Assembly: GCA_963797685.1 (NCBI GenBank)
Contig: CAWCQK010000017.1
Span: 129,652-193,651 of the forward strand
DNA from: an uncultured Chloroflexia bacterium
GTDB lineage: Bacteria; Chloroflexota; Limnocylindria; Limnocylindrales; CSP1-4
Direction: 5' to 3'
Length of the DNA stretch: 64,000 nucleotides
How positions within the stretch are numbered: position 1 is the first letter of the stretch; every line of letters begins with the position of its first letter. Shown here in pieces: positions 7,214-44,904 of this stretch. Below the pieces are notes generated by a model. It made no database searches and was not told the origin of the DNA. It saw only the letters and a program-made list of their open reading frames with translations. The position numbers and the translations under genes were made by a program.

Positions 7214-7594
7214 TCAACCTCGGCGGTCGCCGTCCGCGCGCTGGCGATGGATCTCGACGCCGGCGTGATCGAGCGGGCCATCGAGCCTGACCTCGGGCTT
7301 GCGGACCCGCACGACGACTTCGGTCACGTCGAATCCCGAAAGCAGCTCGTGGCTGATCGCCTCGGCCAACGCCTCGAGCAGCCGGAACGACGTCGACTCG
7401 ACGATCTGTCGGACGGCGTCGTAGACCCGGCCATAGTCCACCGTCAGGTCGAGGTCGTCATCGATCCCGGCGCGCTGGAGGTCGAGCCCCAGCTCGACGT
7501 CGACCTCGAACGGCTGCGGCGTCAGCTGCTCCCACTCGTGGACGCCGTGGCGGGCCTGGAAGCGCATGTTGGCGAGCACGATCCGGTCGCTCAC
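7214..7594 (-). CDS. folB: dihydroneopterin aldolase
   Basis: 126 aa: VSDRIVLANMRFQARHGVHEWEQLTPQPFEVDVELGLDL...DYGRVYDAVRQIVES, which matches the FolB pattern. The GTG start overlaps the folP stop (GTGA at 7591-7594). Confidence 0.85.
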   Translation of the reverse strand: MSDRIVLANMRFQARHGVHEWEQLTPQPFEVDVELGLDLQRAGIDDDLDLTVDYGRVYDAVRQIVESTSFRLLEALAEAISHELLSGFDVTEVVVRVRKPEVRLDGPLDHAGVEIHRQRADGDRRG

Positions 7595-40485: not shown

Positions 40486-40686
40486 ATGCTGGATGGCATA
40501 ACCCCGGTCCACCTGATCATCGTGCTGGTCATCGCCTTGCTGATCCTGGGTCCGGGCAAGCTCCCCGAGACGGGCGCCGCTCTCGGCAAGGCCATGCGCG
40601 AGTTCCGCCACGGGATGACCGACGACGTGACGCCGACACCGCCAGGCCCGCCCGACAACCCGAACGGGGCAGATACCCGGATCTGA
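40486..40686 (+). CDS. tatA: twin-arginine translocase subunit TatA/E
   Basis: ITPVHLIIVLVIALLILGPGKLPETGAALGKAMREFRHG is the TatA TM plus amphipathic-helix signature. 66 aa. Confidence 0.85.
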   Translation: MLDGITPVHLIIVLVIALLILGPGKLPETGAALGKAMREFRHGMTDDVTPTPPGPPDNPNGADTRI

Positions 40687-40857: not shown

Positions 40858-40932
40858 TGGAGCCGACACTCGGACTTGAACCGAGGACCTGCTGTTTACG
40901 AAACAGCTGCTCTACCACTGAGCTATGTCGGC
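40858..40932 (-). tRNA. tRNA-Thr (anticodon CGU), CCA encoded
   Basis: Folded by hand: acceptor GCCGACA/TGTCGGC, D arm GCTC-AGTGGTA-GAGC, anticodon arm GCTGT-TTCGTAA-ACAGC (anticodon CGT), variable loop AGGTC, T arm CTCGG-TTCAAGT-CCGAG, discriminator T, then CCA. Confidence 0.9.
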
Positions 40933-40988: not shown

Positions 40989-42407
40989 TCAGATCGCGAT
41001 CTCGATGGCCTCCCAGCCTTGGTTGCCGTGACCGCCGGCGTACCCATCGTTCAGGATCGTCCGGTCGTTGATCTCGATGTACACCAGGTAGCAGCACGGC
41101 ACGATGAGCGGGTCGCTCCACGGGTCCCACACGAACGAGGTGGGCACGGGATAGCCCTGTTCGGCGGTGTTGCCGCCGTAGGTCTTCGAGAGAGGGACGA
41201 CCGCCCCGCCCGGGTAGAGCGGCAACGGGACGCCACTCACCGGGACCGACAGGCCGGAGTTGCCCCGAGCCGTCACCGCGACCCCGCTCAGGTTCGGGTC
41301 GTAGGCATGGACGGTGACCCGGATCAGCCCGTCGCCACGCTTGACCTTCGCGCATTTCAGCAATTCGGTGGTCCCGTCGGGCTTCTGGAGCTCCAACGTG
41401 ATCGTCGGTCGCGGCAGCGGGAACGGACCCGAGTTGTCGACCCGAACAGGCTGCGGCCCGCTCACCCGCGTGATCGAGCCATCGCGCACACGGAGCCGGA
41501 CGTAATACAGGCCGTCTGCCGACGGCGTCGGCCAGTGGACGAGGACCTTCTCGCCGACCGTATTCGGACCGCCGTCCGAGTCGCAGATCTGCGAGACATC
41601 GAACCAGCCCGGGTCGACCCCGGTCGAGGTGCTCCGGCTGCATGGCGCGAGCCATGGGAAGGACGAGATCGTGTTGTAACCCGATGTCGAGCCGACGAAC
41701 GGGAGATACGTCCCGCTCGGTCCGGTCGACGAGACCTCGACCAGGTACTGGGTCGCCGACGGCATGTTGAAGATGCCGCGCAGCTCGGCGTAGTCACCGA
41801 AAGGGTGATCACCGATCCCTGCCGCCGGGTTCGGGGAGGGGGTGTGACCCGGTCCGACGCTGGGACCGTTGCCAAGTCCCAGGGCGTCGATCTGGCTGAT
41901 CGGGATGTCGCCGACCCGCGTGATGAGCGGTCGCGGCGGGCAGAGCTTGCGGCAGACCTTCCGACAGCGCGCCGAGCAGAAGAAGCGACACAGCTGATGA
42001 CAGAAGCGTTCGAGCTCGAGCTTCTTGATCGTCTGGTTCCAGGCCTTCGCGTCGCCAGCCGCCTGGATCTCGAGCAGGCGCTTGACCGTGTCGGGCTTCG
42101 CCACGAGCGCGGCCAGCGCGTGGGCGAAGTCGATCATCTCCTCGACGCCGACCGGTTCCTTCGGTGGCTCGGGGCAGAAGCTCAGGCAGACGCCGCCACA
42201 GCGCTTCTCACAGAAGTAGCCGCAGATCACCTCGCAGCGCTCGGACAGCCCCGCCTGATCAAGGGCGGCCTCGAACGCCGCCCCGTCCTCCGCCTCGTAG
42301 GCCTCGAAGGCCTTGCGGAACGTCGCCGGGTCCTTGGCGAGCTGCTCCGCGGCTTCCGCGATGCTCCTCAGTTCGTCGATCGGCTCGTCACCGGACAGGG
42401 TCGCCAT
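40989..42407 (-). CDS. hypothetical 472-aa protein with two (C-x3)5-C-P cysteine ladders and a large beta-rich C-terminal region
   Basis: AAGGAG SD 5 nt before the ATG at 42407. No signal peptide. CEVICGYFCEKRCGGVCLSFCP and CHQLCRFFCSARCRKVCRKLCP are each flanked by Ala/Glu/Lys-rich helical segments. The C-terminal 300 aa are Gly/Pro/Ser/Thr/Val-rich and non-repetitive. Confidence 0.75.
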   Translation of the reverse strand: MATLSGDEPIDELRSIAEAAEQLAKDPATFRKAFEAYEAEDGAAFEAALDQAGLSERCEVICGYFCEKRCGGVCLSFCPEPPKEPVGVEEMIDFAHALAALVAKPDTVKRLLEIQAAGDAKAWNQTIKKLELERFCHQLCRFFCSARCRKVCRKLCPPRPLITRVGDIPISQIDALGLGNGPSVGPGHTPSPNPAAGIGDHPFGDYAELRGIFNMPSATQYLVEVSSTGPSGTYLPFVGSTSGYNTISSFPWLAPCSRSTSTGVDPGWFDVSQICDSDGGPNTVGEKVLVHWPTPSADGLYYVRLRVRDGSITRVSGPQPVRVDNSGPFPLPRPTITLELQKPDGTTELLKCAKVKRGDGLIRVTVHAYDPNLSGVAVTARGNSGLSVPVSGVPLPLYPGGAVVPLSKTYGGNTAEQGYPVPTSFVWDPWSDPLIVPCCYLVYIEINDRTILNDGYAGGHGNQGWEAIEIAI

Positions 42408-42436
42408 CGCGTCTCCTTCGCCGAGCGGCTGGTCAC

Positions 42437-42509
42437 ATATCCACGCTCGACGGAACGGTAGGCACCCGCACTCACGGACCCGTCACCGGCCCGTCACGCA
42501 TCCATCACG
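42437..42509 (-). promoter_or_regulatory. array of 11-nt-phased GGTGACG-like heptamers (putative SARP boxes) upstream of the 472-aa gene
   Basis: Plus-strand heptamers ACTCACG (42470), CGTCACC (42481), CGTCACG (42492) and CATCACG (42503) are spaced exactly 11 nt apart. A promoter-proximal TGGATATGTGAC element lies at 42431-42443. The ATG is at 42407. Confidence 0.55.
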
Positions 42510-42518
42510 TCGTCGGGT

Positions 42519-44897
42519 TCAGGCGTCTCGGTCGTAGAAGGGCATCGCGGCATCGTCTGGCCGGTCGAGGTCGGCGATCAGCGCCGCGACGCCGATGTCG
42601 CCCTTGTACAGGCTGTCCCGGCGGAGGGCGTTCTCGCGCACGCTCGTGACCGCCTGGCCCGCCAGATCTCGTGCGCGCGCCAGCCAGAGCCGATCGCCGC
42701 CGGCACGATGGAGGTTGACCAGCGCGTAGGCACGACCGGCCAGGCCGCAGCACAGGTCGCCCGGGACGGGATGGCTCTCGTACGCCGTCCAGGCGGCCCG
42801 TTCCGCGAGAGCCGCGTAGCGATCGTCACCGAACGCACGGGCCGCCGCGGTCCACAGGAAGACCATCCCCGCGGCACCGTTGCACCATGTCGCCGCGAGC
42901 GACCCGTCGTCGGGTGGACCGACCTCGCGGGGCCAGACCAGACCGCGCCCGCGAGGGACCCCGAACCGGGCCAGCTCGTCGAGACGGGCGGCCATCGGCG
43001 GGACAGCGGACCCGCTCGACTCCGCCCAGCGCAGCTGCGCATGGAGGAAGCCCGACCAGCCGTGCGCCGCACCGAGGTAGGAGACGGCGTCATCAGGGCG
43101 ATCCCCCGCGGTCTGCGCCCCGAGCTCGTCCATGGCCGAGAGCTCGGTCCACAGGTTCGTCGCCAGCCGGTTGCCGAGCTCGATGAGCTCCGACCGCTCG
43201 GCCGCGTCCTCCGGCAGCGCGTCGAGGAGCATCGACAGCCCGAGCAGGATCCCGCTGCGTCCGAACGAGACGTCCCGCGCGGGACCGCCGTCGCCCAGCG
43301 CCGACACCATCCCGTGGATCGCCATCGACCGGTCGCTCGCATCGCCACGGGCGTTCCCGATCAACGCTTCGGTCAGGAAGACCCCGGTCGCGCTGTGGTG
43401 GATCCCGGTCGTGCCGAAGTCCTCCGGCGTGATCTCGAGCGCCACGTTGACGAATGCCTCGTCGGTGCCGAGCGACGACAACGCCTTCATCGACCACACA
43501 TCGGCGAGCGCCAGGAGCCGCTCGTCGTCGCGAGACATCGCGATGCGCATGATCCCGTGGGCGATCCCGGCCGCCCCGAGATTGACCGACGCCCGTGGCG
43601 CCTCCAACGGGGAGGCCAGCAGCGGGCCGGCCGGTGACAGCCGCTCGAGGACATCGGCGAGGAACAGGTCCGTCGCGGACGAACTCGCGTCGTGGCGTGG
43701 CCCCGGCGCCCGGTCCAGGTCGGAACGAGCCGCGGCGCGGTAAGCCTCGAGGAGATCGGCGGTCGCCGCGAACCGATCGGCTGGGTCCTTCGACAACGCC
43801 CGCCGCAACACCGCCTCGACCGCGGGCAGGTCGCCCGTGTCGTGGCTCGCGAACGGCAACGGCGCCTCTTCCAGCAGCTGCCGACGCATCTCGTCGGGCT
43901 CGAGCGAGAAGCTGTGGGTGTAGCCGCCGGTCAGCAGCCGGTAGAGCATCGCGCCCAATCCGTATTGCTCGCTTGCCGCGGTGAGCACCGACGCGCCGCG
44001 ACCCGCCTGCTGAGCGGCCGCCGATTCGGGCTCCATGAAGAAGTCCACCCCGCCGCGCGGGACCCCGTGCTCGTCACCCAGCGTCGCCAGCCCGAAATCG
44101 ATGACGGTCACCGATCCGTCGCCGGCAACGAGCACGTTGCTGGGGTGGACGTCGCCGTGTAGCACGCCGCGCCCGTGGAGGTCGGCGTACGCCTCGATGA
44201 TCCGCTCGCCGAGCTCGAGCAGCCGTTCTCGACCGTCCGCTTGCGACAGGCGTCGAAGCTCGGCCGCGGCTGACTCGGCGTCCGCTCCGGGATGCCAGCT
44301 GACGACCAGGTAGGTGCGGCCGTCCGCCTCCCCGATCTCGATCAGGCGAGGCGCGACGCGTCCATCGAGCGCACGCAGGATCCTGGCTTCATGCCCGAAA
44401 AGCGCGGAGCTGCCTGAGCCCGCGCGGCCGACCTTCAGGGCGACGTCGCGCCCCTCCTCGTCGTGCGCGAGGTAGAGCTGCGTGTCGATCATGACCTGGA
44501 CCGGATGGACGACTCGGAACGGGCCGACCGCCGCCCCCTCGGCGAGCACGGACGCCTCGATCGGCTCGGCGAACGGCAAATCGGCCGGGACGAGGAACCC
44601 GTCAGCGAGGAGGTCCTTGAGCACCGGGTACGAGCGCTCGAGGGTCTCGCGCGGATCGAGCTGGCGTTCGCTGGCGAACCCGAGGACCGCATCGACGATC
44701 CGGGTCGGCGTCCGGAACGAGCCGAGCAAGAGCGCCGTGTTGGCATCCACGATGCTCGAGGTCGAGCGGGCTCGCGGCCGGGTGACCGCGTGGTCGCCCT
44801 GGTGATAGGTGAACTGAGCGCGGATGTCCTCGGGGAGCTCCTCGACCGGTGTCAGCTCGACGTCGGGCGGCAGCAGCATCGGGCCGGCGATCGTCAT
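42519..44897 (-). CDS. Ser/Thr protein kinase fused to a LanC-like cyclase domain, with a PqqD/RRE-like N-terminal region
   Basis: Kinase motifs DVALKV, HGDVHPSNVLV and VIDFGLA. LanC motifs GAAHGWSG, TWCNGAAG and LCCGLAGR. N-terminal SIVDANTALLLGSFRTPTRIVDAVLGFASERQLDPRETLERSYPVLKDLLADGFLVP resembles PqqD-type RREs by eye. The ATG at 44897 is 7 nt after the upstream stop. Confidence 0.85.
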   Translation of the reverse strand: MTIAGPMLLPPDVELTPVEELPEDIRAQFTYHQGDHAVTRPRARSTSSIVDANTALLLGSFRTPTRIVDAVLGFASERQLDPRETLERSYPVLKDLLADGFLVPADLPFAEPIEASVLAEGAAVGPFRVVHPVQVMIDTQLYLAHDEEGRDVALKVGRAGSGSSALFGHEARILRALDGRVAPRLIEIGEADGRTYLVVSWHPGADAESAAAELRRLSQADGRERLLELGERIIEAYADLHGRGVLHGDVHPSNVLVAGDGSVTVIDFGLATLGDEHGVPRGGVDFFMEPESAAAQQAGRGASVLTAASEQYGLGAMLYRLLTGGYTHSFSLEPDEMRRQLLEEAPLPFASHDTGDLPAVEAVLRRALSKDPADRFAATADLLEAYRAAARSDLDRAPGPRHDASSSATDLFLADVLERLSPAGPLLASPLEAPRASVNLGAAGIAHGIMRIAMSRDDERLLALADVWSMKALSSLGTDEAFVNVALEITPEDFGTTGIHHSATGVFLTEALIGNARGDASDRSMAIHGMVSALGDGGPARDVSFGRSGILLGLSMLLDALPEDAAERSELIELGNRLATNLWTELSAMDELGAQTAGDRPDDAVSYLGAAHGWSGFLHAQLRWAESSGSAVPPMAARLDELARFGVPRGRGLVWPREVGPPDDGSLAATWCNGAAGMVFLWTAAARAFGDDRYAALAERAAWTAYESHPVPGDLCCGLAGRAYALVNLHRAGGDRLWLARARDLAGQAVTSVRENALRRDSLYKGDIGVAALIADLDRPDDAAMPFYDRDA

Positions 44898-44904
44898 GGC
44901 CGCC

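What the first reader, a model, noticed from the sequence alone, without database searches (positions are those of the whole stretch)
40989..42407. A 472-aa cytoplasmic protein with two perfect (C-x3)5-C-P cysteine ladders
Residues about 57-78 (CEVICGYFCEKRCGGVCLSFCP) and about 135-156 (CHQLCRFFCSARCRKVCRKLCP) each place six Cys at exact i,i+4 spacing and end in C-P-(E/P)-(P/R)-P. Each ladder is embedded between Ala/Glu/Lys-rich helices. If helical, an i,i+4 spacing lines all thiols along one face. That is reminiscent of Cu(I)-storage helical bundles, but this exact repeat is not a motif I recognise. The remaining 300 aa look like beta-rich domains and end with a CC pair (IVPCCYLVYIEIND). There is no signal peptide. 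The gene has its own phased-heptamer promoter region and a strong SD.
Basis: seen in the sequence. Interest (0 to 1): 0.75.

Follow-up and report, generated by a model that had tools for sequence, protein, structure and literature searches.

The report
Paired six-cysteine ladder helices, uncharacterised protein family
This gene encodes a real, highly conserved protein of an unstudied family in which two helices, each with six cysteines spaced four residues apart, pair into a six-rung "cysteine zipper" of a kind not described before, most likely to hold metal ions or reversible disulfide bonds.

Summary
Window 40989..42407 on the minus strand encodes a 472-aa protein with two exact (C-x3)5-C-P ladders, at aa 58-79 and 136-157. 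It has no signal peptide and a strong SD. An array of four GTGAYGG heptamers at 11-nt spacing lies upstream.

The protein has at least 303 full-length homologues at 53-89% identity across many soil phyla, all named "hypothetical". Both ladders are kept in 108 of 120.

AlphaFold2 (pLDDT 92) gives an N-terminal domain made of two duplicated units, each three short helices plus a ladder helix, followed by beta-sandwiches. Nothing similar was found in Pfam, NCBIfam, PDB, PADLOC or PHROGs, and no Csp hit appeared.

The same ladder domain, in two or four copies, heads other uncharacterised proteins of 650-830 aa.

Across 431 ladder pairs, cysteines are lost together as rung i of ladder 1 and rung 7-i of ladder 2. 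So the helices pair antiparallel and the cysteines act as six cross-helix pairs.

Whether the rungs hold soft metal ions (slightly favoured, because the protein looks cytoplasmic) or form disulfides cannot be decided in silico.

The neighbouring kinase-LanC operon shares the SARP boxes here, but it is not a family-wide partner.

The parts
40989..42407 (-). Gene for the 472-aa ladder protein (stop codon included)
   Evidence: ORF list and translation. GC3 is 0.88. At least 303 full-length homologues. The exact protein is on record in NCBI/ENA on a 258-kb contig.
41928..42386 (-). N-terminal double-ladder domain, aa 8-160. It is two tandem units of about 78 aa, each with three short helices and one 23-residue ladder helix.
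   Evidence: AF2 helices H8-24, 27-38, 42-51, 55-77 and H88-102, 105-117, 120-129, 133-155, with pLDDT 92-93. Unit 1 against unit 2 by hhalign gives probability 99.2% and E 7.8e-20.
42171..42236 (-). Ladder 1, aa 58-79, CEVICGYFCEKRCGGVCLSFCP
   Evidence: C58, C62, C66 and C70 are invariant; C74 and C78 are conserved in at least 90%.
41937..42002 (-). Ladder 2, aa 136-157, CHQLCRFFCSARCRKVCRKLCP. It pairs antiparallel with ladder 1: 58-156, 62-152, 66-148, 70-144, 74-140, 78-136.
   Evidence: Paired loss of Cys in 431 ladder pairs: both Cys 2402, one Cys 54, neither 130. Every other register does far worse. DCA top pairs agree.
40992..41927 (-). C-terminal all-beta region, aa 161-472. This is the most conserved part. 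Invariant residues include H201 (GDHPFG), C352, C438-C439, D448-R449 and H460.
   Evidence: AF2 strands. Conservation. Foldseek finds only generic Ig-like tandem matches with TM no higher than 0.28.
41418..41555 (-). Adhesin-type bacterial Ig-like motif (DGLYYVRLRVRD...VRVDNSGP), about aa 285-330
   Evidence: Weak profile match to SiiE Ig domains 2yn3, E 0.0045. The same stretch matches 10-21 repeats in giant proteins of 1900-3500 aa.
41091..41096 (-). Invariant CC pair, aa 438-439
42413..42418 (-). Shine-Dalgarno AAGGAG, 5 nt before the ATG
   Evidence: Sequence read
42469..42508 (-). Array of four heptamers (three GTGAYGG plus one degenerate copy, GTGAGTG) at 11-nt spacing upstream of the ladder gene. 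These are SARP-type boxes.
   Evidence: the three exact dimer matches in the window all fall in this array or its twin. The array is conserved in L011-L015 and present upstream of the homologue in L054, next to a SARP gene.
46570..46609 (-). Second array of the same heptamers, upstream of the small Cys-rich ORF that heads the kinase-LanC operon
46632..47471 (-). SARP-family regulator gene (BTAD domain), the presumed reader of both heptamer arrays
   Evidence: Pfam BTAD 1.3e-18 and NCBIfam AfsR-like. SARP homologues lie next to the ladder gene in L048 and L054.
42519..46471 (-). Context, not a constant partner. This operon holds a 121-aa Cys-rich protein (46106..46471), a 392-aa unknown protein (44905..46083) and a kinase-LanC fusion (42519..44897, probable start).
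   Evidence: Pfam and NCBIfam. The block is conserved in L011-L015 and L048. In metagenomes 72 of 80 loci keep the 392-aa gene and the kinase-LanC together, but only 1 has a ladder gene.
40858..40932 (-). tRNA-Thr (CGT), 56 nt downstream of the ladder gene. It marks the end of the block.
   Evidence: ARAGORN

Best explanation
The gene encodes a stand-alone, probably cytoplasmic protein of an undescribed superfamily.

Its N-terminal domain is a tandem duplication of a 78-aa unit made of three short helices and one (C-x3)5-C helix. The two ladder helices lie antiparallel. Their 12 cysteines work as six cross-helix pairs: 58-156, 62-152, 66-148, 70-144, 74-140 and 78-136. This part is shown by covariation.

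I infer that in the reducing cytoplasm these pairs are thiolates that clamp soft metal ions. These would be two-coordinate Cu(I)-type sites across the rungs, possibly extended by intrahelical C-x3-C sites as seen in Csp3. That would make a linear metal-thiolate ribbon along the seam between the two repeats.

The ladder domain is a portable N-terminal module, present in two or four copies. It is fused to different, more conserved beta-sandwich domains that carry the main and still unknown activity. In relatives its place is taken by a signal peptide or a membrane hairpin.

In this genome the gene is switched on by a neighbouring SARP regulator through GTGAYGG repeats, together with a kinase-LanC operon.
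For: Shown:
- The family is large and under strong constraint: at least 303 homologues at 53-89% identity across Chloroflexota, Acidobacteriota, Bacteroidota, Actinomycetota, Pseudomonadota and Armatimonadota.
- The ladders are kept in 108 of 120 homologues.
- The helical model is confident, and the domain is an internal duplication.
- Cysteines are lost in pairs in the antiparallel register only, and all six rungs show it: 130 paired losses against 54 single, versus 5-63 against 119-296 for other registers.
- When one rung is lost, the neighbouring rungs stay Cys-Cys. So the pair is the working unit, not a four-Cys site.
- The ladder domain recurs two or four times at the N-terminus of other proteins.
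- No N-terminal hydrophobic segment occurs in 120 of 120 family members.
- The C-domain of the four-ladder proteins is 64% identical to proteins that carry a basic tail and two hydrophobic helices instead of ladders. That places this domain on the cytoplasmic side.
- An unpaired Cys is kept invariant in the C-domain, and about 29% of rung losses are single. Both fit a reducing compartment.
- SARP boxes are shared by two promoters here, and by L054 in another phylum.

By analogy: in Csp3, Cu(I) ions are held by intrahelical CXXXC pairs alternating with cross-helix Cys pairs, without disulfides (PMC5171941).
Against: - No metal has been measured.
- There is no homology or fold similarity to Csp or to any metalloprotein.
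- No copper or redox genes are conserved next to the gene in about 60 loci.
- Strictly paired loss is also the classic signature of disulfides.
- Relatives of this C-domain exist behind Sec signals (P0173, P0231).
- An exact 4-residue period forces a strongly right-handed wrap of the two helices. I could not inspect model coordinates to see whether the sulfurs sit at disulfide or at metal-bridging distance.
- The function of the conserved C-terminal domain is unknown.
Confidence: 0.38

Rival explanations
1. Disulfide zipper. The six rungs are cystines. Either they are permanent staples of a protein that ends up in an oxidising place (released or exported without a classical signal), or they are a reversible six-disulfide redox switch or buffer in the cytoplasm. 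This would be an extended version of the twin-CX3C helical hairpin of small Tim proteins and plant alpha-hairpinins.
For: - Loss is strictly pairwise and antiparallel, with complementary replacements such as R-Y, A-R and G-W.
- There is a known precedent: twin CX3C helices joined by two disulfides (PMC11591084 and PMC5725982, listed; the details are from my own knowledge).
- The C-domain has relatives with Sec signals and an adhesin-type Ig motif.
- A further Cys pair, 256/275, is present in only part of the family. C256 occurs only together with C275.
- The four-ladder relatives have many C-x5-7-C loops in their beta domains.
Against: - No member has a signal peptide.
- The four-ladder C-domain has membrane-hairpin relatives whose topology puts it in the cytoplasm.
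- 54 single Cys losses and an invariant odd Cys are tolerated.
- Six consecutive i+4 rungs would need very strongly bent helices (inference).
- No thiol-oxidoreductase genes are nearby.
Confidence: 0.32
2. Substrate of cysteine-modifying enzymes. The ladder cysteines are converted into thioether or other cross-links by the adjacent kinase-LanC and 392-aa protein here, and by other enzymes elsewhere, so that the protein is a giant RiPP-like product.
For: - The ladder gene and the kinase-LanC operon share SARP boxes.
- The four-gene block is kept at about 40-50% identity in a Gaiellaceae MAG (L048) and in L116.
- Other lineages have a radical SAM gene (Thermoleophilia), or a DUF692/MbnB-like gene near a four-ladder gene (L066).
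Against: - Only 7 of about 62 ladder loci have the kinase-LanC.
- Only 1 of 31 kinase-LanC loci with enough downstream DNA has a ladder gene.
- That module has its own small Cys-rich protein as the likelier substrate.
- The ladders contain almost no Ser or Thr to dehydrate.
- The radical SAM gene is separated by another ORF and is confined to closely related genomes.
Confidence: 0.05
3. The cysteines serve another purpose. They could be small-residue packing at a tight helix-helix seam, ligands for Fe-S or Zn(Cys)4 centres, or sites of lipidation that tether the protein (the ladder domain stands where relatives have membrane anchors).
For: - The ladder domain and signal or TM segments are mutually exclusive in front of homologous C-domains.
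- The ladder helices of the 472-aa family are very basic.
- Twin CX3C motifs can bind Zn when reduced (my own knowledge).
Against: - About 94% retention of Cys, rather than Ala, Ser or Gly, argues for sulfur chemistry.
- After a rung is lost the neighbouring rung is kept, which does not fit four-Cys sites.
- No Fe-S or zinc-finger family match was found.
- Bacterial cytoplasmic S-acylation is essentially unknown (my own knowledge).
Confidence: 0.15
4. Not a real gene: a chance ORF in GC-rich DNA.
For: Many long spurious ORFs overlap it in other frames.
Against: There are hundreds of full-length homologues in genomes of very different GC content. GC3 is 0.88, the gene has an SD, and the fold prediction is confident.
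Confidence: 0.01

Closest known systems
Csp1/Csp3 copper storage proteins (Cys-lined four-helix bundles)
   Same: Both are helical with many Cys. Both use CXXXC on helices. In Csp3, Cu(I) is held by intrahelical CXXXC pairs alternating with cross-helix pairs, there are no disulfides, and the protein is cytosolic without a signal (PMC5171941).
   Different: - No sequence or fold match.
- Cys sit on only 2 of 8 helices.
- The period is strictly i+4 with six in a row.
- The domain is a duplicated 4-helix unit with a Cys seam between the repeats, not a Cys-filled bundle core.
- It is fused to about 310 aa of beta-sandwich domains.
Twin-CX3C helical hairpins (small Tim proteins; plant alpha-hairpinin peptides; scorpion CS-alpha/alpha toxins) and twin-CX9C CHCH proteins
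   Same: Two antiparallel helices are joined through Cys at i,i+4 on each helix, paired outer-to-outer and inner-to-inner. This is the same register logic as found here (papers listed).
   Different: Those have two rungs, are a simple hairpin of 30-90 aa, and sit in oxidising compartments. Here there are six rungs, the helices are 57 residues apart with three helices in between, there is no export signal, and no Pfam zf-Tim10_DDP match.
Class III/IV lanthipeptide systems (LanKC/LanL and precursor)
   Same: A kinase-LanC fusion lies directly upstream on the same strand, under the same type of SARP boxes.
   Different: - The ladder protein is a folded 472-aa protein, not a leader-core peptide.
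- The association is confined to two lineages.
- The enzyme scores far below the LanL/LanKC cut-offs (180 against 650 bits) and matches only from model position 187, so it lacks the lyase part.
Bacterial Ig-like (BIg) domains of giant adhesins such as SiiE
   Same: The motif DG-YY-L-V-D...V-VDNT-P, at aa 298-328, matches SiiE Ig domains and the repeats of 2000-3500-aa proteins. Foldseek finds tandem Ig-like proteins.
   Different: The similarity is weak (E 0.0045, TM no higher than 0.28). There are no repeats, no signal peptide, and extra invariant His, Cys and Asp residues suggest a specific site.

Membership tests
Csp copper storage proteins | Sequence membership in the Csp family profile (Pfam DUF326 family, from memory) | tested here: not met
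   No Pfam or NCBIfam hit for the protein. No PDB sequence hit to 5ARM, 5FIG or the 5FJD chains.
Csp copper storage proteins | Four-helix-bundle monomer whose core is lined by Cys from all helices (PMC5171941) | tested here: not met
   Foldseek of the N-domain model against PDB gave best E 0.69, TM no higher than 0.24, and no Csp entry. Cys sit on only helices 4 and 8 of eight.
Csp copper storage proteins | Binds many Cu(I) ions through thiolates, without disulfides | not testable with these tools
   This needs ICP-MS, Cu(I) titration and thiol counting.
Twin-CX3C / alpha-hairpinin helical hairpins | Cys at i,i+4 on two antiparallel helices, paired in mirror order | tested here: met
   The antiparallel in-register mapping explains paired Cys loss: 130 paired against 54 single. 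Other registers give 5-63 against 119-296.
Twin-CX3C / alpha-hairpinin helical hairpins | Exactly two rungs in a short helix-loop-helix; Pfam zf-Tim10_DDP for Tims | tested here: not met
   There are six rungs, with three helices between the ladders, and no Pfam hit.
Twin-CX3C / alpha-hairpinin helical hairpins | Disulfide-bonded in an oxidising compartment | tested here: inconclusive
   No signal peptide in 120 of 120 members, but secreted relatives of the C-domain exist. The redox state cannot be tested here.
Lanthipeptide precursor or substrate of LanL/LanKC | Consistently encoded next to the synthetase | tested here: not met
   7 of about 62 ladder loci have it. Only 1 of 31 kinase-LanC loci with at least 1.5 kb downstream has a ladder gene.
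Lanthipeptide precursor or substrate of LanL/LanKC | Short leader-core peptide with Ser/Thr and Cys in the core | tested here: not met
   This is a 472-aa protein predicted to fold confidently. The ladders hold one and two Ser and no Thr.
SARP-controlled gene | Direct heptamer repeats at 11-nt periodicity just upstream of the promoter, with a SARP gene nearby (feature from my own knowledge of SARPs) | tested here: met
   Four heptamer boxes (GTGAYGG, some copies degenerate) at 11-nt spacing before the ladder gene, and four before the operon. A BTAD regulator lies at 46632..47471. The same boxes sit between the SARP gene and the ladder gene in L054. Binding itself was not tested.
Bacterial Ig-like adhesin domain | Profile match to BIg domains | tested here: inconclusive
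   E 0.0045 to SiiE 2yn3 over about 45 residues. There are repeat matches in giant proteins but no Pfam Big hit.
Known anti-phage defence or phage protein families | Match to PADLOC or PHROGs profiles; presence on viral contigs | tested here: not met
   No hits. No relative in 2.9 million viral contigs.

The most novel reading that the evidence does not exclude
The ladder proteins are protein-sized substrates for cysteine stapling. In different lineages, unrelated Cys-modifying enzymes encoded beside them convert the paired thiols into covalent cross-links. These enzymes are kinase-LanC in Limnocylindrales and Gaiellaceae, a radical SAM enzyme in Thermoleophilia, and a DUF692/MbnB-like enzyme near a four-ladder gene. 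The result would be a new class of enzymatically 'zipped' helical proteins. More broadly, the twin ladder may be a new cofactor-like device, such as a one-dimensional metal-sulfur chain or a six-disulfide capacitor, that replaces membrane anchors in front of conserved beta domains.
Probability: 0.08. Interest if true: 0.9.

Novelty: new variant of a known kind. Interest (0 to 1): 0.72.

Why it matters
Paired CX3C helices and Cys-lined helical bundles are the two known ways in which proteins use helical cysteine rows. This family takes the idea to six consecutive rungs, in a new duplicated fold. It repeats the module up to four times and attaches it to several very strongly conserved domains of unknown function, in hundreds of soil bacteria from many phyla. 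None has been studied.

If the rungs hold metal, this is a new architecture for cytosolic soft-metal handling: a linear thiolate ribbon rather than a filled bundle. If they are disulfides, it is the most heavily stapled helix pair known, and it raises the question of how a signal-less protein gets oxidised.

Either way it offers a compact, designable motif. It also gives a testable handle on a large "hypothetical" superfamily, because cultured strains carry it: Edaphobacter sp. 12200R-103 (WP_162401651.1), Acidobacteriaceae bacterium KBS 146 and Mucilaginibacter sp. McL0603.

Tried and rejected
**Annotation and fold libraries (nothing found)**
- Pfam, NCBIfam, PADLOC and PHROGs scans of the protein and of its four-ladder relatives gave nothing.
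- PF27846 is precomputed on 3 homologues. It is not in the local Pfam and not in the paper library.
- PDB sequence profiles found only a weak SiiE Ig match.
- Foldseek of the whole model against PDB and BFVD found only generic Ig tandems. Foldseek of the N-domain found nothing.
- Literature searches for "cysteine ladder" and CX3C repeats turned up nothing on this family.

**Viral origin: rejected**
- There was no relative on viral contigs.

**A conserved partner gene: rejected**
- All-against-all clustering of ORFs within 8 kb in 64 loci found no family-wide neighbour.
- Contexts from nine look-ups all differ.

**Kinase-LanC as a general partner: rejected**
- The reverse test shows this.

**Lineage-specific neighbours: not decisive**
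- The radical SAM neighbour is confined to closely related Thermoleophilia and separated by another ORF.
- Lysyl-oxidase-like neighbours occur in two lineages only.
- Copper-related neighbours (MbnP/MbnH in L004-6, MerR in L064) are anecdotal.

**Four-Cys (Zn or Fe-S) sites: disfavoured**
- Orphan rungs are retained after a neighbouring rung is lost.

**Limits**
- My first ladder-register script was biased by window choice. I replaced it with an alignment-based count.
- The DCA run is noisy at gapped ends, and only the Cys-Cys pairs are used from it.
- I could not obtain model coordinates, so sulfur-sulfur distances were not measured.
Full report
**1. Observation**

The ORF lies at window 40989..42407 on the minus strand. 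It starts with ATG and encodes 472 aa. It contains two exact (C-x3)5-C-P runs:
- CEVICGYFCEKRCGGVCLSFCP at aa 58-79
- CHQLCRFFCSARCRKVCRKLCP at aa 136-157

The runs are followed by EPP and PRP respectively. They are the only runs of four or more i,i+4 cysteines in any frame of the 64-kb window. None of 200,000 shuffles of the protein produced a six-Cys ladder.

Codon-position GC of 0.63, 0.51 and 0.88 is that of a real gene in 70% GC DNA. An AAGGAG sits 5 nt before the ATG. Four heptamers (three GTGAYGG plus a degenerate GTGAGTG) at 11-nt spacing lie at -101 to -62. The N-terminus is acidic and not hydrophobic.

The only corrections are the strand and a one-residue shift in numbering.

**2. 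The family**

A protein search returned at least 303 full-length relatives of 455-524 aa at 53-89% identity, every one called "hypothetical protein". A scan of one genome per species found 53 loci.

The window matches "uncultured Chloroflexia" / Limnocylindrales MAGs at 97%. Other carriers are:
- Anaerolinea
- Acidobacteriaceae and Pyrinomonadaceae
- Chitinophagaceae and Mucilaginibacter
- Thermoleophilia, Gaiellales and Acidimicrobiales
- Rhodanobacter
- Armatimonadota
- a frameshifted Bathyarchaeota copy

Cultured carriers include Edaphobacter sp. 12200R-103 (WP_162401651.1), strain KBS 146 and Mucilaginibacter sp. McL0603.

Both ladders are intact in 108 of 120 homologues. C58, C62, C66, C70, C148, C152 and C156 are invariant in the 66-sequence alignment. 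The C-terminal part is even more conserved. An example is LSKTYNGN-ADQGYPVPTEFLWDPWSDP-IVPCCYLVYVEINDRAILNN--GGH---GWEAIEIG.

Identity of about 55% between phyla, in genes whose GC content has adapted to hosts of very different GC, points to strong purifying selection on a sporadically distributed gene.

**3. Structure**

AlphaFold2 with this alignment gives pLDDT 92.2 and pTM 0.81. The N-domain alone gives pLDDT 93.2.

Residues 8-155 form eight helices in two sets. Each set is three short helices followed by a 23-residue ladder helix (H55-77, H133-155). The two sets are homologous: hhalign gives probability 99.2%, E 7.8e-20 and 30% identity. Residues 160-472 are all-beta.

Foldseek of the whole model finds only generic tandem Ig-like proteins (PorM, PrgB, antigen I/II, transglutaminase C-terminal barrels, phage tail and decoration proteins) with TM no higher than 0.28. 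Foldseek of the N-domain finds nothing. The best E was 0.69, and no copper storage protein appeared although their structures are in the PDB.

Profile searches of PDB sequences give only a weak match of aa ~298-328 to the Ig domains of the giant adhesin SiiE. Pfam, NCBIfam, PADLOC and PHROGs give nothing. No relative is on viral contigs.

**4. A modular superfamily**

An exhaustive profile search of 1.84 billion cluster representatives found 471 hits, 221 of them at E no higher than 1e-10. Because the 472-aa family collapses at 50% identity, most hits are other architectures.

Many proteins of 650-830 aa carry the double-ladder domain once or twice at the N-terminus, so up to four ladders. Their Cys-rich beta domains are unrelated to the one here, and total Cys reaches 27-47. 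None has a Pfam domain.

The C-terminal domain of the 472-aa family also occurs without ladders behind a Sec signal or signal anchor (P0173, P0231).

The C-domain of one four-ladder type (P0135) is 64% identical to proteins of about 540 aa that have a basic N-tail and two hydrophobic helices in place of the ladders (14 of 99 relatives). By the positive-inside rule that topology puts the domain on the cytoplasmic face.

So the ladder domain is a portable N-terminal module. It is mutually exclusive with signal or TM segments. No ladder-bearing protein has a signal peptide: 0 of 120 in the family, and none among the four-ladder proteins.

**5. The key result: the ladders pair rung by rung**

In the 150-sequence family alignment, the rare Cys losses come in pairs:
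- C78 with C136 (L044, L054, P0092, P0119)
- C74 with C140 (P0032, P0084, P0041)

Divergent members add more:
- C70 with C144 (P0127, P0131, P0224, P0186, and ladders 3/4 of P0167)
- C66 with C148 (ladders 1/2 of P0167)
- C58 with C156 (P0186)

I then aligned 431 unique double-ladder units and counted.

| Mapping | Both Cys | One Cys | Neither |
|---|---|---|---|
| Antiparallel, in register (rung i of ladder 1 with rung 7-i of ladder 2) | 2402 | 54 | 130 |
| Shifted or parallel mappings | 1890-2281 | 119-296 | 5-63 |

The replacements are complementary and of many kinds: R-Y in 28 sequences, A-R, G-W, S-S, Y-V, H-S and others. That indicates many independent events.

A mean-field DCA on the same alignment, though noisy, ranks C78-C136, C66-C148, C70-C144 and C58-C156 among its top pairs.

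When one rung is lost, its neighbours stay Cys-Cys over long divergence. The pair is therefore the functional unit, not a four-Cys site. This argues against Zn(Cys)4 or Fe-S centres.

The seam of six Cys pairs lies between the two duplicated units. This part of the explanation I regard as shown, at about 0.85.

**6. What the rungs are**

Two readings survive.

*(a) Metal-bridged thiolates.* The whole superfamily lacks export signals. Single Cys losses are tolerated: 54 of 184 affected rung positions. An odd Cys is invariant in the C-domain, where relatives have CC...CC and the family has KC...CC. In Csp3, Cu(I) ions are held exactly by intrahelical CXXXC pairs alternating with cross-helix pairs, with no disulfides in the apo form (PMC5171941). 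A twin ladder offers 6 cross-helix and 10 intrahelical sites of this kind.

*(b) Disulfides.* Strictly pairwise loss is their classic signature. Twin CX3C helices joined by two disulfides are known (small Tims, alpha-hairpinins). The C-domain has secreted relatives and adhesin-type Ig features. A further Cys pair, 256/275, occurs in only part of the family, and C256 is never found without C275.

Geometry adds a caution, and this is inference. A strict 4-residue period drifts about 40 degrees per rung. Six rungs therefore need a tight right-handed wrap of the two helices, unlike the mixed 3/4 spacing of Csp bundles. I could not read coordinates to test this.

I rank (a) at about 0.38 and (b) at about 0.32.

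**7. Surroundings and regulation**

Upstream on the same strand lie four genes:
- a SARP regulator (46632..47471)
- a 121-aa Cys-rich protein with a strong SD (46106..46471)
- a 392-aa protein without any family match (44905..46083)
- a kinase-LanC fusion (42519..44897, probable start), which matches LanL only from model position 187 and far below the cut-off

A tRNA-Thr follows the ladder gene, and tatA comes next.

The same four-heptamer array precedes both the small ORF and the ladder gene. All three exact dimer matches in the window are in these two arrays. With up to two mismatches there are 14 matches against 4.6 expected (alignment). The arrays are conserved in L011-L015.

In L054, an Actinomycetota MAG whose ladder protein is 46% identical, a SARP gene lies directly upstream of the ladder gene. 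The spacer between them carries three GTGACGG boxes at 11-nt spacing. SARPs are known to bind such repeats (my own knowledge). So the ladder gene is very probably SARP-activated here, together with the kinase-LanC operon.

The partnership is not general:
- ORF clustering over 64 loci finds no family-wide neighbour. The kinase-LanC block occurs only in the Limnocylindrales group and in one Gaiellaceae lineage (L048).
- The 392-aa family has 211 metagenomic relatives. 72 of 80 fetched loci keep the kinase-LanC next to it. Only 1 of the 31 with at least 1.5 kb downstream has a ladder gene.

Contexts of four-ladder genes also differ from one another. Other lineage-specific neighbours are a radical SAM gene, lysyl-oxidase-like genes, a WYL regulator and MbnP/MbnH. 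These are noted but not decisive.

**8. Comparison and verdict**

The protein is not a member of the Csp family, nor of the twin-CX3C or CHCH families, nor a lanthipeptide precursor. Defining features of each were tested and not met (see the membership table).

It works most like a greatly extended twin-CX3C pair, or like a linear version of the Csp thiolate sites.

I file it as a new variant of a known kind, namely paired helical cysteine rows, in a new fold and a new, sizeable, wholly uncharacterised superfamily. The function of the highly conserved C-terminal domain remains unknown. It carries invariant His201, Cys352, Cys438/439, Asp448-Arg449 and His460, which are conserved even in the secreted relatives.

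Interest is 0.72.

Noticed in passing
window 42519..46471 (minus); loci L067-L146: A conserved module holds a 121-aa Cys-rich protein (N-terminal FEAR-LRVQ-PCG, Cys-rich middle, C-terminal coiled helix), a 392-aa protein with motifs FKLYV and RPDK(M/L)VAYF but no family match, and a kinase-LanC fusion that lacks a lyase domain and has a CCG motif. The 392-aa family has 211 relatives in soil metagenomes, and 72 of 80 loci keep the kinase-LanC next to it. This looks like an undescribed lanthipeptide-like system.
   Followed up: partly
window 42469..42508 and 46570..46609 (minus); L054 about 7300..7345: Four GTGAYGG heptamers at 11-nt spacing occur at two promoters beside a SARP gene. The same boxes lie between a SARP gene and the ladder homologue in an Actinomycetota MAG. 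This is a SARP box conserved across phyla.
   Followed up: partly
window 44897 versus 45110 (minus): The longest ORF of the kinase-LanC gene (863 aa) starts with about 71 Arg/Ser-rich residues. The likely true start is Met72 (MTIAGPMLL) at 44897, 7 nt after the stop of the 392-aa gene. The 507-aa ORF 44905..46428 likewise really starts at 46083.
   Followed up: partly
window 40858..40932 (minus) and 40486..40686 (plus): A tRNA-Thr(CGT) lies 56 nt downstream of the ladder gene, followed by a tatA gene. The SARP-to-ladder block therefore abuts a tRNA gene, a common island border. I did not test for island boundaries.
   Followed up: no
P0272-P0283, P0289, P0291, P0298, P0339, P0363: These proteins of about 540 aa have the same C-terminal domain as the four-ladder protein P0135 (64% identity). 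In place of the ladders they carry a basic N-tail and two hydrophobic helices. So ladder domains and a membrane hairpin are interchangeable.
   Followed up: partly
L031, L038, L039, L043, L051, L055, L063 (about 9440..10890 in L031): In Thermoleophilia and Gaiellales the ladder gene is followed by an ORF of about 135 aa and a radical SAM gene (CNIACAHC motif). The radical SAM gene resembles the N-terminal half of SPASM peptide maturases. The genomes are closely related, so the synteny may be uninformative.
   Followed up: partly
L010 9555..10493, L016 10109..10972, L065 3339..4202: Lysyl-oxidase-like genes, which are rare in bacteria, lie near ladder genes in an Anaerolineae lineage and near a four-ladder gene.
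   Followed up: partly
L004-L006 5400..7600; L066 3750..5430; L064 4456..5547: Copper- or cysteine-related genes are scattered near some ladder genes: MbnP/MbnH-like, a DUF692 MbnB/TglH-like cluster, and MerR with OsmC. None is conserved across loci.
   Followed up: no
L055, L057, L058: The ladder genes in these long-read MAGs are broken by frameshifts or stops, including the only Bathyarchaeota copy. These are either sequencing errors or pseudogenes. The archaeal occurrences (L052, L056, L057) are partial or damaged, and binning could be wrong.
   Followed up: no
P0006, P0017, P0028 and similar (Anaerolineae-type homologues): Some family members carry an extra Lys/Pro/Glu-rich, probably disordered extension of 30-45 aa before the first helix. 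Its purpose is unknown.
   Followed up: no
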